A stretch of DNA of 38,937 nucleotides, from the IMG/VR virus record IMGVR_UViG_3300032024_000415, positions 1-38,937 of that record; one strand, written 5' to 3'. The number at the start of each line of letters is the position of its first letter. The first letter of the stretch is position 1. The notes under the pieces were generated by a model, which saw only the letters and a list, made by a program, of their open reading frames with translations, was not told the DNA's origin and did no database searches. Below, in pieces: positions 1-30,488 of the stretch. Source of the stretch: a virus (Duplodnaviria > Caudoviricetes). The position numbers and the translations under genes are program-made.

Positions 1-1215
1 CTATTTTAGGGCGATTTCCAGCCATTCTGCTCCGCGCACATCATGATAAATAGCAGTCATTTTGGCGGATTTATGGCCTAGTAACAGCTGGGTGTTAATG
101 CCTTGTTCCGAGTAAAGTCGTTCCGATAATGATCTTTGCTCGTGAAAAGTCGGCGGGTCTTTTCCTTCCCATGTCATTGAAGTTAGTTCACGCGCTCGCT
201 GAAAGCCTCGGCTGATGGTGTTCTGATGCACGGGGTCGCCGGGGGAGTGTTTGGCATTGTTATTATCATGATGGATCAAGCGCTTTGACAGCACGCCACC
301 TTTCCGGCAGTTGGCAATCGCATCACCCAGGCTGAGGTTTAACCGGTCCAGTTTCAGTTCCAGCGGGATCCTCAGCAGGGCGCCGGTTTTTTGCTGAACG
401 ATGTGGAAAAAATCACCCTCAACATATGGGTAGGGTTTTATTGGGTGCGGTTGGCGTTGTTTGTAGGCCAAGTAAGCAGCGTCCCAGTCAGCGCCTTTTT
501 TAAATTGCGCCAGGCTGATGTCTTCGAGCCGTTGAGCGGTTAATAATGCCAATAACATCGCATTTTTGACAAAGGGTTGCAGGGCTTCGGCGGCTTGATA
601 GATGTCCTGCCAGTCCTCAAATGCCAACCGTGCCCGTTTGATGTAGACGGTTTTGTTTTTAGTCAGGGTCGCGGGGTTGGCGTCGGTCTCGCCTTCCTGG
701 ATGGCTTCGGAAAATATATCCATCAGGATTGAGCGCATCGACTGGGCCATCCGGTTCTTGCCTTGATCGCGCATGCTGCCTAATGTTGTCGAAATGTCTT
801 TGACGCTGATATTTTTGATGCCTAATCCGGCAAACGACAGCGCCCATTGCTTGGCGATGTAACAACGGATTTTATGGGTTGTCGGTTTTATCTCGCCGGT
901 TTTTAAGCGTTCGTCCTGGATCTTCAGATAGGCCTCGATCCACAGCTCAAATTTTATGCCGCTGATTTTGATCGTGGGCTGCTGCGCCAGGATACTGTCT
1001 TCTTTTAGCTGGGCGAGTTGGGCGTAGATTGCCGCGTTGAGTTGCAGGGCTCGGGTTTTGGCCACGTCTTCATCGGCACCGAGCCCGCGAAAGCGTCCGT
1101 CGCGTGGGTCTTTGTACTGGAAATTAGCCCGGTTGGTGCGCTTGTCGAGTTTGCGGTACAAGTTCGGGATCTTGTCCAGATCGCGGTTTTTGGGGGTTCG
1201 GTCTCGGGGTGTCAT
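1..1215 (-). CDS. int: Lambda-type tyrosine recombinase (phage integrase)
   Basis: N-terminal arm-binding-like segment (PNLY...FQYKDPRDGRFRGLG); catalytic motifs TAQRLEDI (R), QQKTG (K), FHEQRSLS (HxxR), LLGH, C-terminal Y; xis-like gene nearby. Confidence 0.95.
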   Translation of the reverse strand: MTPRDRTPKNRDLDKIPNLYRKLDKRTNRANFQYKDPRDGRFRGLGADEDVAKTRALQLNAAIYAQLAQLKEDSILAQQPTIKISGIKFELWIEAYLKIQDERLKTGEIKPTTHKIRCYIAKQWALSFAGLGIKNISVKDISTTLGSMRDQGKNRMAQSMRSILMDIFSEAIQEGETDANPATLTKNKTVYIKRARLAFEDWQDIYQAAEALQPFVKNAMLLALLTAQRLEDISLAQFKKGADWDAAYLAYKQRQPHPIKPYPYVEGDFFHIVQQKTGALLRIPLELKLDRLNLSLGDAIANCRKGGVLSKRLIHHDNNNAKHSPGDPVHQNTISRGFQRARELTSMTWEGKDPPTFHEQRSLSERLYSEQGINTQLLLGHKSAKMTAIYHDVRGAEWLEIALK

Positions 1216-1433
1216 TTTTGCTCCTTGACAGGCACTTCATAATCACAGCCATAGGCGTAATCAGGATTCGAACAAAATTTAAACCCCGTTGTGGTCACTT
1301 CAACCATCCGGTAATTACAATGTGGACAGCGTTCGTCCAGCAATTTATGGACGCACGTTCCGCCACCACACTTTAATACATTGCATTTATACATATTTCT
1401 GGTAGTCGTGGGTGTGTTTGTTGAGATAGGCAC
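1212..1433 (-). CDS. Small Cys-rich (zinc-ribbon-like) hypothetical protein; start uncertain (GTG 1433 or ATG 1394)
   Basis: CPHC and other Cys pairs; stop overlaps the int start (ATGA coupling). Confidence 0.55.
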   Translation of the reverse strand: MPISTNTPTTTRNMYKCNVLKCGGGTCVHKLLDERCPHCNYRMVEVTTTGFKFCSNPDYAYGCDYEVPVKEQK

Positions 1434-1461
1434 CGATAAAGGTGCCTATATAGCGTTAGGC
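1426..1461 (+). other. Left boundary of cassette array: 9-bp hairpin followed by core site GTTAGGC (attI/attG-like or degenerate attC)
   Basis: ATAGGCACC-GATAAA-GGTGCCTAT at 1426-1449, 5-nt spacer, GTTAGGC at 1455-1461, complementary to GCCTAAC at 2142-2148. Confidence 0.6.
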
Positions 1462-1464
1462 ACT

Positions 1465-2127
1465 CTATTTTGCTCTTTTTGTTTTCGAAAATCCCATTTT
1501 GTGCGCTTTATGCATAATCTGTTTTTCAGTTCTTCCTGGTAGTTTTTCAGCAACTTTAGTGCCAATGCGCGGGTATTCTGATTTAAGAATTTCAATTTCT
1601 GAGTCAGTCCATAAATGACGTGTTTCTGATTCTAATCCTAATCTAAATGCTCTGAGCATAATCTGTTTTTCAGTTCTTCCTGGTAGTTTTTCAGCAACTT
1701 TAGTGCCAATGCGCGGGTATTCTGATTTAAGAATTTCAATTTCTGAGTCAGTCCATGAATGACGTGTTTCTGATTCTAATCCTAATCTAAATGCTTTCGA
1801 TCGAATCTGGTTTTTATTTCTTCCTGGTAGTTTTTCGGCAACTTTAATGCTAATGCGAGGGTATTCTGATTTAAGAGTTTCAATTTCTGATTCTGTCCAG
1901 AATGTTTGTGTTTTTTTTGTTATACCTAGAAGATTAGCCATATTTTGTATAGCGCTAATTGTCCTATTTTTGAGTAAACACTGAATTTCTTTTTGAGTTT
2001 TATTGTTATAATTATTTTCCAATATTTTTATTTCCTTTATCGTCCACTCCTCATTTCTTCTTTTTTTTGGCTTAGCCAGTTTAATATCATCTAAAGCAGC
2101 TGCCAGGAATCTCGATTTACTAGCCAT
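1465..2127 (-). CDS. Basic protein of tandem SANT/Myb-like helix-turn-helix repeats (cassette 1 cargo)
   Basis: Four WTxxEIxxL...LPGRTxxQI repeats, three nearly identical (48 aa); much more AT-rich than flanks. Confidence 0.8.
   Translation of the reverse strand: MASKSRFLAAALDDIKLAKPKKRRNEEWTIKEIKILENNYNNKTQKEIQCLLKNRTISAIQNMANLLGITKKTQTFWTESEIETLKSEYPRISIKVAEKLPGRNKNQIRSKAFRLGLESETRHSWTDSEIEILKSEYPRIGTKVAEKLPGRTEKQIMLRAFRLGLESETRHLWTDSEIEILKSEYPRIGTKVAEKLPGRTEKQIMHKAHKMGFSKTKRAK
1513..1900. repeat. 144-bp intragenic tandem repeat (about 2.7 copies)
   Basis: CATAATCTGTTTTTCAGTTCTTCCTGG starts at both 1513 and 1657; third more diverged copy near 1800. Confidence 0.9.
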
Positions 2128-2141
2128 AATTTATTATCAAT

Positions 2142-2229
2142 GCCTAACCCGTAAATCAACGGGAACGCGGCCCTAATCTATCGTTAAAATTACAACGCGT
2201 CGCCGCGTCCCGTTATTATTGCGTTATAA
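2142..2229 (+). other. attC recombination site 1 (88 bp)
   Basis: GCCTAAC-CCGTA-AAT(C)AACGGG(A)ACGCGG...CCGCGTCCCGTTATT-ATTGC-GTTATAA; arms pair perfectly apart from the extra C and A typical of attC top strands. Confidence 0.9.
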
Positions 2230-2231
2230 AC

Positions 2232-2405
2232 CTAATACTCGTTCTCTCGGGAAATTTTCAGCCGCCTTTTTTCTTCCCATGCCTCCCAGTCTGTTGTGCG
2301 ATCCATCTCAATACACTCATCACAAAGCGGCACGCCGTGGTAATCTGTTAGTCCAGCTTCCTCGTCTCCGCAGTAATTACAATGAGTCCAGTCTCTAGCT
2401 TTCAT
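2232..2405 (-). CDS. 57-aa CxxC-x15-CxxC zinc-finger-like protein (cassette 2 cargo; not in ORF track)
   Basis: Hand translation MKARDWTHCNYCGDEEAGLTDYHGVPLCDECIEMDRTTDWEAWEEKRRLKISRENEY; GGAG 5 nt before ATG; fills the space between the two attC sites. Confidence 0.75.
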   Translation of the reverse strand: MKARDWTHCNYCGDEEAGLTDYHGVPLCDECIEMDRTTDWEAWEEKRRLKISRENEY

Positions 2406-2417
2406 GGCATCTCCGAC

Positions 2418-2505
2418 TTATAACCCGTCGCTCTACCGGAGCGCGGATTCAATCTATGTTTAAATTACGGGCGCTTTACCGCGCCCGGTTAGCTCTGCGT
2501 TATGC
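2418..2505 (+). other. attC recombination site 2 (88 bp)
   Basis: TTATAAC-CCGTC-GCT(C)TACCGG(A)GCGCGG...CCGCGCCCGGTTAGC-TCTGC-GTTATGC; same length and same extrahelical C and A as site 1; shared loop motif AATCTATnnTTnAAATTAC-like. Confidence 0.9.
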
Positions 2506-2781
2506 GTCATTAGTTTGCCTCATATTCAAAATCTGCAAAACCACCGGGTCGGTCGGGATGATAGTCAGGTCCACGTTGGCCGGGGTTTCGACGAATAATT
2601 TTACCGGCTTACGATATTCAGACAACTCGGTTACCATCCAGTCCTTACCGATTTTATGCGGTGCCGGGTGGATACAACCATTTCTGGCCCACGATCGTAA
2701 GGTATTCTTCGTGTAGCGGCCAGAAAATAGCGCTTCATTCCATTGTTGGAGCGTTATCATTTTGATCGCTGCGCTGCTCAT
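2500..2781 (-). CDS. xis: Excisionase (lambda Xis-like)
   Basis: ITLQQWN...TLRSWARNGCIHPAPHKIGKDWMV mirrors the lambda Xis pattern; upstream of int on the same strand. Confidence 0.85.
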   Translation of the reverse strand: MSSAAIKMITLQQWNEALFSGRYTKNTLRSWARNGCIHPAPHKIGKDWMVTELSEYRKPVKLFVETPANVDLTIIPTDPVVLQILNMRQTNDA

Positions 2782-4143: not shown

Positions 4144-4686
4144 TCACGCTACCGCTGGCCGGAATGATTCTGCTCTGTTTTCCCAGCCGTTGATAAATAT
4201 CGATTGACTCGGGTCGTGGGCGACGATCTTGCGGTAATAATCAACGCGTGCATCTACCAAGATGCTAATAACGCGATGCCCCAGATCGCTGAGGGCGCTT
4301 TCTGCTGCGCTGATAGTGCGCCGACCGATTAAACCATCAATGCCGCCGGGGTAATAGCCGTTTGCATCCAATGTTTTTTGCAGGATTTTTATGGCTCGTA
4401 CCGGTCCGTGATTGACGGCCATGTCAAAGATGATCGGCTGGATAGCGGATTGCAAGAGATTGATGTTTGGCGCCACATAGTAATTTTTCAGGTAGATTTT
4501 TTCGGCGGTGCTTTTGAGCAGCCGTTTTATTTCTGTGGTGCTGACGGTGCCAATGCTGCGATTAAAGTAGTCCGCATAAGCCGCTTTGGTGATGCCGTAT
4601 TTGGTTGGGCCACCTCGGTCTGCCGGGTGATTGATGTAACCGCCTTCTTTGGCAATGATGTCGTCTACCATGGCTTTTATGCTCAT
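4144..4686 (-). CDS. Glycoside hydrolase family 108 lysozyme with peptidoglycan-binding domain (endolysin-like)
   Basis: EGGYINHPADRGGPTKYGIT, FDMAVNHG, IDGLIGRRT, FINGWENR. Confidence 0.9.
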   Translation of the reverse strand: MSIKAMVDDIIAKEGGYINHPADRGGPTKYGITKAAYADYFNRSIGTVSTTEIKRLLKSTAEKIYLKNYYVAPNINLLQSAIQPIIFDMAVNHGPVRAIKILQKTLDANGYYPGGIDGLIGRRTISAAESALSDLGHRVISILVDARVDYYRKIVAHDPSQSIFINGWENRAESFRPAVA

Positions 4687-27938: not shown

Positions 27939-30488
27939 ATGGCATTAGGCGTAACAATCGACTTTAACGCAAATCTGGGCAATATTACCGGTCAGGTTGA
28001 CCGGATGAACTCCCAGCTGAACCGGTTCCAGGTGCAGGCCGAAACCATGTCCAGCCGGGTTAGCAAGGCTTTTGGTGCGTTGGGTGTCGGGCTGTCGATA
28101 GCGGGTATCGGTGCGTTCGTGAAATCGGGCATCGATGCAGCTGACGCGCTGAGCAAAATGGCAAGCAAAACCGGCATCGCAGTCGAGGAGCTGGCCGGGC
28201 TTAAACTGGCGGCCGATTTGTCCGATACCAGCCTGGAAACACTGGGTAAGGCAGTCAACAAGTTGTCGGTGTACATGACGACCTATGCCTCTGATGCCAA
28301 GGGTCTGGGCATTACGTCAAAGGACAACAGCGAGGCCTTTGCTCAGTTGGCCGATGTGCTGACCGGTATCGATGACGCGCAAACTCGTGCGGCTCTAGGT
28401 ACAAAAATTCTGGGCAGATCATGGCAGGATTTAGCTCCGCTATTGTTGCAGGGCGGTGAGGCGATACGCGAGCAAGTTAAGCAGGGCAAGGAGCTGAATC
28501 CGGTTACCACCGAAATGGCCTTACAAGCCGCGGCTTTTAATGACAGCTTAACCATCCAGGAGGCGCGCTTAAAAGGTGTCGCCACACAAATGGCCGGGCC
28601 TTTTGTCGATGCCGAGGCCAAGTTGCTGGAATATCTGATCGATACTAATACGGAGCTGGGTAGTTCCGGCGATAGTTTCAGCGTATATCGTACCGCGATT
28701 AATGAGACGGTTATTGTCATCGCGACGCTGAATAATTTATTAGACCGTGCAGGCAAAGGCGCAGGCCGTTTGGCCGCCGAAGTCGTTGCGCTTGCTCACC
28801 TGGATTTTAAGGGCTATGCCGTTATCGAGGAGGCGTTTAAAGAGGATATTACTAACGCGCAAACTCGCTATGAAAAATTTGTCAGTGACATCAGGAACCC
28901 GAGTAAAGGCCCGATTATCCCGGCAATAAAACCACCGCAAACCGATGCGGCCGCCGTAGCCACTGCGCTGGGCGTTACTGGTACCAGTAGTGCCGGTAAA
29001 ACCGATTCGGCCACGAAAAAACGGATTGCCTCGGCGGCCAGTGTCGACAAGTTGAAAGCCTCCGCCGACGGCATGATTGCCAATCTGCAACGCGAATTGG
29101 CGTTGAGAAACGACGCCGGTGAAGCTGCCCGAGTGCAGTACGATATTGTCAGCGGCTCGTTGAAGGGCATTAGTGCCGGCCAGGCTAAAAAGCTGACCGA
29201 CCTGGCCGCCGAAAAGGACGCGGTAGTCTCGCTGTCGGCAGTCAGAAGTAAACTGGTTGAGGTGGAAGCCACCCGGCTTGAGAATAGCGGGCACGCAGAT
29301 GAAGCGGCCCAGTTGCGCATCAATAACAACTATCTTGATGAAGAGCTGAAATTAAAAACCGCATTGCGGAATTTACAGGAAGCCACCCAAAGCAAGGCCA
29401 TTCAGCGCGAAACCGTACTGACCTAATCGGCGCTGGGCAACCTGAAGACAGCAAAACAAATGGAGTTGTCGCGCAGTCGCCTGAACAGTTTGACCGAGCA
29501 ATCCGCCGCGCTGCTGTTCGATTTGCAGGACAGTGAGCAGCGCATCGCAATCTCCCGGAATATCGGTTTTTTGTCCGAACAGCAGGCGATGGAGAAGATC
29601 ATCGATGCCAGAAAAGACTATATCGCCCAACAGGAAGAAATCATCAGGCTGAAAATAATCACCCTGAGCAAGAGCGGTAGTCCGCAAGAGCTTCAGTCGC
29701 TGAACCGGGACAAACAAGCGCTCGATAACATCAAATACGGCGAGGTGGGTTTTAACCAGCAATTTAACCAAGATTCGTCTTTGGCCGAATTCGATAAAAA
29801 TCGCGCTCAAATCGGCTTGTCGAAAGACCAGGGGCTGGACAAGGCCGACGCCAATTACCAGGCCAACATGCAGGCCGGTAATCTGGATGCGTTTAAACAA
29901 TATTCCGCCGACAAGGCCAAGGTTGAGGGCGACGCCTACAAAGCGTCTTTTATCAACGCCACCGGTTATTACAGCGGCATCGCCGCCACCGCTGCCGACA
30001 CCTTTATGGGCGTGACCAAAGCGGCGGTCAAGATGTACGGCGAGCAGAGCAAACAGGCAAAAATTGCCTTTGCGCTGTACAAGGCCACCGCGATCGCGCA
30101 AGCCATTATCGCGACCGCGCAGGCGGTCACCGTGCAACTGGGCGCCGGGCCGTGGATCGGCTTTGTGCTGGCCGGTCTTGCTGGTGCGATGGGTGCGGTG
30201 CAGATCGCACAGATTGCCTCCCAGCAGATGCCCGCCGCTCATGGCGGTCTGGACTACGTGCCCAAGGAGCAAACCTTTTTGCTTGATAAAGGCGAGCGGG
30301 TGATCTCGCCCCGGCAAAACAAGGATTTAACCGGATTTTTGCAGCAAACAGGCCAAAACAACAGCGGACCGGCCGTTAATATTACCGTCAACGTGCAGGG
30401 CACCAATGCCCCGGACGTCCGCCGCGCCGCCGGACAGGGCGCGCGTGAAGCCTTATCGGTCATGAATGGAGCCCGCCGTTATGCCTGA
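27939..30488 (+). pseudogene. Tape measure protein interrupted by one in-frame TAA (29424-29426)
   Basis: ORFs 27939..29426 and 29460..30488 share a frame with 11 sense codons between; Ala-rich helical; C-terminal AHGGLDYVP...LLDKGERV. Confidence 0.85.

What the first reader, a model, noticed from the sequence alone, without database searches (positions are those of the whole stretch)
1456..2502. Both cassette ORFs are inverted relative to canonical integron polarity, and the xis stop codon forms the last core site
Seen: the extrahelical bases place the attC top strand on +, yet both cargo ORFs are on -, starting 12-14 nt from their own attC. The xis stop TAA (2500-2502) is the TTA of the core GTTATGC. 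Established: most integron cassettes carry the ORF on the top strand upstream of attC, and inverted ones are a minority. Inference: these may be a phage-adapted cassette class that would be silent from an integron Pc promoter but is read from the phage leftward transcript. The cargo (Zn finger, HTH repeats) looks like phage early genes. Insertion at a TAAC stop preserves xis.
Basis: partly seen in the sequence, partly recalled or inferred. Interest (0 to 1): 0.78.

Follow-up and report, generated by a model that had tools for sequence, protein, structure and literature searches.

The report
Phage integron dock with reversed cassettes
A temperate phage, likely of methane-oxidising bacteria, carries a variant of the bacterial integron docking site and two swappable gene cassettes but no integron integrase, and the cassette genes face opposite to those of bacterial integrons, so phages likely borrow an integrase to keep their own gene pool that would be read only from the phage's early transcript.

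Summary
The window is a complete 38.9-kb prophage with exactly two attC sites (2142-2229, 2418-2505). Their top strand is +, both cargo genes are on -, and the xis stop lies in the last core.

It matches the site found 143-154 nt before intI in Methylococcaceae (24 of 33 nt). No intI was found on the phage. Closely related prophages have xis directly next to int.

The polarity split is general. In this attC family, viral contigs gave 50 inverted and 10 canonical calls of 64; bacterial genomes gave 34 and 118 of 186. Both minority counts are near the classifier's chance rate. Two near-identical phage pairs differ starting at this attI. Growth is therefore inferred at attI, not at the xis stop.

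Phage attI and attC form their own subtype. The recombinase (host or phage IntI), expression and activity are untested. Phage CALINs are published; I found no paper on systematic inversion. This scan noted the same layout in many other phages. Verdict: new variant of a known kind.

The parts
1..1215 (-). lambda-type phage integrase (not an integron integrase)
   Evidence: Pfam Arm-DNA-bind_1, Phage_int_M, Phage_integrase; no TIGR02249 match in the genome
1212..1394 (-). 60-aa Cys-rich ORF between attI and int; stop overlaps the int start; not a cassette
   Evidence: 55% identical stretch in the early region of L175; no attC by covariance model
1411..1461 (+). attI-type docking site, phage subtype: extra GGTG box 1411-1414, perfect 9-bp inverted repeat 1426-1434/1441-1449, inferred crossover G1455|T1456
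   Evidence: 24 of 33 nt identical, ungapped, to the site before intI in L049
1456..2223 (+). cassette 1 (768 bp), attI-proximal and so inferred to be the most recent
   Evidence: core 1455-1461 complementary to R'' 2142-2148
1465..2127 (-). cassette 1 gene: 220 aa, four three-helix Myb-like/T5 D5-like HTH repeats (three 144-nt DNA repeats), predicted DNA-binding protein; no clear ribosome-binding site
   Evidence: Pfam PF00249 E 3e-12; phrog_323 E 2e-27; repeats; AlphaFold pLDDT 80.5, pTM 0.38; best PDB match c-Myb 1h88_C, E 1.5e-3
2142..2229 (+). attC1 (88 nt), top strand +
2224..2499 (+). cassette 2 (276 bp)
   Evidence: core 2223-2229 complementary to R'' 2418-2424
2232..2405 (-). cassette 2 gene: 57 aa, two CxxC motifs, GGAG ribosome-binding site
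   Evidence: phrog_5602 E 9e-4; Atlas look-alikes are unnamed viral clusters at 0.93-0.94
2418..2505 (+). attC2 (88 nt), top strand +, one mismatch in the L box
2500..2781 (-). excisionase; stop TAA (2500-2502) lies in the last core; no attC of its own
   Evidence: Pfam PF07825, phrog_629

Best explanation
This prophage carries an integrase-less integron platform between xis and int: an attI-type site and two attC cassettes whose genes lie on the bottom strand, likely inserted at attI by an integron integrase supplied in trans (most likely the Methylococcaceae host's) and likely read from the phage's leftward early transcript. Shown: the anatomy; the match of the site to the sequence before intI in Methylococcaceae; no intI found on the phage; the polarity split between viral and bacterial arrays; and cassette differences that begin at this site in near-identical phages. 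Inferred: IntI folds the attC bottom strand as usual and joins circular cassettes to attI. Because the phage's attI points against the early transcript and sits at its promoter-distal end, only cassettes with a bottom-strand gene would be expressed and kept. New cassettes would enter next to attI and push older ones toward xis. The TTA of the xis stop would then be the right half of the original empty site, or the mark of an older IntI join.
For: 1) attC anatomy and polarity. 2) The attI motif occurs in 24 of 301 Methylococcaceae genomes, with 0 matches for the reversed control. In 8 of 30 loci examined it lies 143-154 nt before a divergent intI; the first ORF is canonical in 27 of 30 and inverted in 0. 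3) 24 of 29 selected viral attI loci have downstream same-strand attC; model hits are 73 downstream, 5 upstream, 0 opposite strand; orientation calls are 58 inverted, 12 canonical, 6 unclear. 4) L231 and L240 are 98.8% identical over 3 kb left of attI, and L240 has 935 extra nt exactly at the site. L235 and L268 are identical on the left, differ in proximal cassettes and share distal ones. 5) IntI was found in 1 of 29 viral records and in 4 of 5 host genomes with a related prophage; G093 has intI beside this attI type. 6) One intI-bearing Methylobacter contig holds four phage-signature cassettes, three with clear inverted small genes, among canonical ones (L099/L100). 7) xis abuts int (2-30 nt) in 9 related loci, and overlaps it in L175.
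Against: No recombination or expression data. The phage attI differs from the host's: the upstream direct repeat is present in 0 of 24 viral vs 27 of 30 host sites, and the spacer ends GC/TC in 20 of 24 vs 1 of 30. Phage attC ends GC before the core in 24 of 33 vs 18 of 143 host sites. The host enzyme may therefore not be the main catalyst. G204, the genome with the closest prophage, had no intI match (2.9 Mb, may be incomplete). L006 is a viral record with a different attI type and a canonical cassette 96% like a host one, so the split is not absolute. The left end of the 1.28-kb insert (orf60/int) is not an att site. The orientation classifier is crude: it miscalls the window's own cassette 2. 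Loci are not fully independent. An in-frame stop in the tape-measure gene suggests this prophage may be defective.
Confidence: 0.65

Rival explanations
1. Same platform, but the cassettes are moved mainly by a phage-encoded IntI lineage supplied by co-infecting or co-resident phages, not by the host enzyme.
For: Phage-specific attI and attC signatures. One viral record (G027/L016) has its own IntI, 54% identical to a Methylococcaceae IntI, followed by inverted cassettes.
Against: IntI was found in only 1 of 29 viral records (10 of them at least 90% complete), and that phage's attI is of another type. Other phage arrays start at other host attI types (L029 like L071/L176, L010 like L182). Phage-signature cassettes occur in an intI-bearing host-type array.
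Confidence: 0.15
2. The sites are relics or homology linkers: the block arrived in one piece and modules are exchanged by phage homologous recombination between similar hairpins, without IntI.
For: The insert's left end is not an att site. attC sites are similar enough to recombine. No contig joint skipping a cassette was seen (two runs, probably the source data).
Against: Differences between near-identical phages start within about 10 nt of the attI crossover, where no attC homology exists. Cores stay complementary to their own R'' (25 of 35 internal viral junctions match at all 4 variable bases).
Confidence: 0.1
3. One reading: cassettes were inserted at a secondary (attG-type) GTT site that happens to be the xis stop codon.
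For: IntI inserts cassettes at a bare GWT consensus (bioRxiv 10.1101/2022.09.11.507474, passages). L172 has a TAAC shortly after its xis stop. Such a join could have made the right-hand junction once.
Against: The sequence left of the first core is a conserved attI, not random DNA. L277, the other close relative, lacks that TAAC.
Confidence: 0.07
4. The polarity is misassigned: the - strand is the top strand and the cassettes are ordinary.
For: Read on -, each gene ends near a TAAC and is followed by a hairpin; core complementarity is symmetric and cannot tell the two apart.
Against: Unpaired C16/A23 lie on +, as in host arrays whose genes are on +. Model scores are 66-71 vs 8-21 bits. attI points rightward, and in L240 the hairpin travels with the gene on its left.
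Confidence: 0.03

Closest known systems
Phage-borne CALINs, including the CALIN with its own attI in Shewanella prophage M16-3 (Qi et al. 2023, PMC9892861; read parts 2-4 of 7, term searches of main text and supplement)
   Same: attC clusters in phages without an adjacent intI; five of six tested phage attC recombined with attI1; one array starts with attI; methyltransferase cargo also occurs in my viral set
   Different: The text I read does not report bottom-strand genes, a phage-specific attI subtype or exchange at attI between related phages; M16-3 also encodes IntI. Figures and the Dryad annotation file were not visible and may show orientation.
Sedentary chromosomal integrons of Methylococcaceae (L049, L076, L101, L109, L285-L310)
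   Same: same attC family and attI core motif; hosts also have many attI copies without a nearby intI (22 of 30 loci)
   Different: host cassettes are canonical (27 of 30 first ORFs, 0 inverted); host attI has an upstream direct repeat and a different spacer
Cassette insertion at attG sites / SALINs (Loot et al., bioRxiv 10.1101/2022.09.11.507474; passages read)
   Same: IntI acting in trans outside an integron; short GWT target
   Different: here the target is a full attI-type site conserved across many phages, and the orientation is uniform
Cassettes inserted backwards by top-strand recombination (Nivina et al. 2016, PMC5027507; passages read)
   Same: gene faces against Pc
   Different: there the whole cassette with its attC is flipped; here attC keeps normal polarity relative to attI and only the gene is reversed

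Membership tests
attC site | R'' (..AAC) and R' (GTT..) cores with complementary L''/L' boxes | tested here: met
attC site | extrahelical G16 and T23/24 on the bottom strand | tested here: met
   C16/A23 on +; numbering from PMC5027507
attC site | bottom strand can fold with the R box paired | tested here: inconclusive
   attC1 bottom strand: the minimum-energy fold is the R-paired form (-15.9 kcal/mol). attC2: R-paired form lies 2.2 kcal/mol above an alternative fold
attC site | recombined by IntI as a single strand | not testable with these tools
   needs a conjugation assay
attI site | homologous site lies just before a divergent intI and heads a cassette array | tested here: met
   8 of 30 host loci, 143-154 nt; also L049, L076, L101, L109
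attI site | cassette content changes at the G|TT | tested here: met
   in related phages L231/L240 and L235/L268; not shown for the window itself
attI site | accessory upstream direct repeat as in the host site | tested here: not met
   0 of 24 viral vs 27 of 30 host sites; 12 of 24 viral sites, the window included, have a GGTG-type box instead
complete integron | intI gene next to the array | tested here: not met
   the adjacent recombinase is a lambda-type Int
complete integron | cassette genes on the attC top strand, read from Pc | tested here: not met
   promoter scan at chance level
CALIN | two or more attC without a neighbouring intI | tested here: met
attG/SALIN insertion | target has only a GWT consensus | tested here: not met
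   left junction is a conserved attI; right junction inconclusive

The most novel reading that the evidence does not exclude
Phages run a mirror-image integron: a phage-specific attI at the far end of the early operon and a separate pool of reverse-built cassettes share the host's IntI, so polarity insulates the two pools. Host defence cassettes landing in the phage, and phage counter-defence cassettes landing in the host integron, would both be silent. Because the recombining bottom strand is the sense strand here, early transcription on induction would itself promote cassette shuffling.
Probability: 0.25. Interest if true: 0.85.

Novelty: new variant of a known kind. Interest (0 to 1): 0.66.

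Why it matters
Integrons are seen as bacterial gene-capture devices, and many chromosomal cassettes are anti-phage (bioRxiv 10.1101/2024.07.02.601686, abstract read). A phage-side attI with reversed cassettes would mean phages use the same chemistry to vary their early accessory genes (methyltransferases, Lar-like and other small proteins). It would give one concrete, site-specific mechanism for phage early-region mosaicism. It also bears on the open question of how cassettes are made: stop codons mark the boundary in both pools but on opposite strands. Each claim is testable with the standard attC x attI assay.

Tried and rejected
- xis query in viral contigs: no relative.
- Cassette proteins have no close homologues: cassette 1 best 28-40% identity; cassette 2 only itself. 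So neither cassette was seen in another genome.
- Cassette 2 vs the similar-looking small ORF in L013: no significant match (E 1.3).
- Inverted ORFs of L099: no PHROG hit and no relative among fetched loci.
- Reads: no RNA holder listed. No joint skipping a cassette in two contig sets that may be the source data; this is not evidence either way.
- Promoter scan: 15 sites vs 15.3 expected, so a site inside xis is not used as evidence. No strong terminator on - between xis and int.
- Further attC right of xis, which would make xis an intact cassette: none.
- The left hairpin as a degenerate attC: rejected, no AAC core or extrahelical base.
- The phage Int as the cassette recombinase: unlikely; it is lambda-type and its close relatives have no cassettes.
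- LexA-type boxes in eight intI loci with a recalled consensus: none found.
- Fold search gave no match at E <= 0.001. Atlas for orf60: leads only, under 0.9.
- Rows dropped before counts: attC within 250 nt of a locus end and duplicates; L021 and L028 gave no usable site. Of the 57 loci, 29 with the inverted repeat or a GTTA core were passed to the model; the rest were mostly duplicates or another repeat.
- Literature: eight searches found no paper on inverted phage cassettes. Passages of PMC4889954, PMC13323075 and PMC11551772 held nothing on it. The library lacks most subscription papers.

Full report
Setting. The window is a whole provirus record, rated 100% complete, with lambdoid order: int, xis and a leftward early operon, CI-like repressor, replication, head and tail genes. 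No integron integrase was found (TIGR02249). The attC family and the nearest prophages point to Methylococcaceae as host: most of the 80 listed genome hits are Methylobacter and kin, and xis relatives occur in 7 of 301 genomes of that family. The host is inferred, not shown.

Observation. Confirmed in full. There are two attC sites with top strand +, against 0.05 expected by chance. An independent covariance model scores them 66.0 and 70.8 bits on + and 20.7 and 8.5 on -. The unpaired bases C16 and A23 correspond to G16/T23 of the recombining strand. Both genes are on -. Cassette 1 encodes four Myb-like/D5-like HTH repeats. Cassette 2 encodes a 57-aa two-CxxC protein with a ribosome-binding site. 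The xis stop is the TTA of the last core.

Is the inversion general? A simple ORF rule called 50 inverted, 10 canonical and 4 unclear of 64 viral sites (the window's two included), and 34, 118 and 34 of 186 genome sites. On shuffled flanks the rule gives 19% inverted and 16% canonical (viral) and 17% and 12% (genome). The minority class in each set is therefore near chance. By locus, the split is 23 inverted, 2 canonical, 4 tied for viral loci and 10, 46, 12 for genome loci with full flanks. PHROG hits fell on 16 of 58 bottom-strand and 0 of 33 top-strand candidates, and four of the ten 'canonical' viral calls have the hit on the bottom strand. PHROGs favours phage genes, so this shows that the bottom-strand ORFs are real, not that top-strand ones are absent. 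Some loci share a contig or are close kin.

The DNA left of the first core recurs at the head of other phage arrays. The same motif lies just before a divergent intI in Methylobacter (L049, L076, L101, L109). It is in 24 of 301 family genomes, with no control hits. Of 30 loci examined, 8 have intI 143-154 nt away and 22 have none within 1.5 kb; the first ORF is canonical in 27 and inverted in none. The window matches the host site at 24 of 33 bases, in register with the crossover. In viral contigs, 24 of 29 selected sites are followed by same-strand attC, and these cassettes are again inverted (58 inverted, 12 canonical, 6 unclear). L231 and L240 are 98.8% identical for 3 kb up to the site, and L240 holds 935 more bases there, followed by the first cassette of L231. 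L235 and L268 differ only in the proximal cassettes. This is how an attI behaves.

A phage subtype. Viral attI sites lack the host's upstream repeat (0 of 24 vs 27 of 30), end their spacer in GC/TC (20 of 24 vs 1 of 30) and often have a perfect inverted repeat (13 of 24 vs 1 of 30). Viral attC sites end GC before the core in 24 of 33 cases against 18 of 143 in genomes. Among genome sites that mark is enriched in inverted calls (15 of 34 vs 7 of 118). One such locus looks like a phage contig in a bin (L091). Another is an intI-bearing array with four marked cassettes among canonical ones (L099/L100). The pools are thus distinct but appear to meet. L006 is a counter-example: a viral record with a canonical, host-like cassette.

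The xis junction. In nine related loci xis is followed by int within 2-30 nt; L001 lacks xis altogether. The window therefore has a 1.28-kb insert: attC2, cassette 2, attC1, cassette 1, attI, orf60. Its right end is an att core and its left end is not. A bottom-strand ORF ending on the core TAA occurs at 21 of 45 viral and 24 of 115 host GTTA cores (p 0.002). It mirrors the stop-in-R'' of 34 of 87 canonical host cassettes. The xis stop is best read as the right half of the original empty site, or as an old IntI join. It is not the place where cassettes now enter. No empty-site relative was found.

Mechanism. Shown: anatomy, homology to host attI, no intI found, polarity split, and exchange at attI in relatives. 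Inferred: IntI in trans, most likely from the host (4 of 5 hosts of related prophages encode it; 1 of 29 viral records does); expression from the leftward early transcript; and selection of bottom-strand genes. Confidence 0.65. The main rival is a phage-encoded IntI (0.15).

Known and new. Phage CALINs, one with its own attI, and activity of phage attC are published (PMC9892861). Secondary-site insertion is published. Eight searches found no report of systematic inversion or of a phage attI subtype; figures, the Dryad file and most subscription papers could not be seen. Earlier notes of this scan describe the same layout in other phages. They are unchecked AI notes and are not counted as support. 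The attI was found from the sequences before the notes on docking sites were read. Verdict: real, a new variant of a known kind, interest 0.66.

Noticed in passing
window 27939-30488: The tape-measure gene is split by an in-frame TAA at 29424-29426 into 495-aa and 342-aa ORFs; the prophage may be defective, or this is an assembly error.
   Followed up: partly
window 4144-4686: A GH108 endolysin-like gene lies in the leftward early operon instead of the late region; similar genes sit near xis in L008 and L027.
   Followed up: no
window 1490-1921: Three 144-nt repeats in cassette 1 break the contigs, so the repeat number rests on the assembly.
   Followed up: partly
window 2421-2494 (record 5): A second, low-depth contig of the same sample holds a related attC with other flanks, so the family exists elsewhere in that community.
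   Followed up: no
L284-L313; G005: Methylococcaceae genomes carry several attI copies without a nearby intI (22 of 30 loci; 5 matches in G005), most followed by a canonical gene.
   Followed up: partly
L016 / L191 (G027): A viral record with its own IntI, an attI and inverted cassettes.
   Followed up: partly
L029 863-1136, L010, L006: Phage arrays start at at least three other Methylococcaceae attI types.
   Followed up: partly
L200/L234, L221, L270: A phage integrase-like gene starts 53-219 nt left of attI, in the place intI holds in bacterial integrons (identified by eye from the translation).
   Followed up: no
L175 200-1260: Early genes are separated by eroded attC-like stretches that appear to be translated as N-terminal leaders; one scores E 5e-4 with the model.
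   Followed up: no
L100 4170-5100 region: The IntI of this array has a long N-terminal extension; open frames of about 500 aa occur in G004.
   Followed up: no
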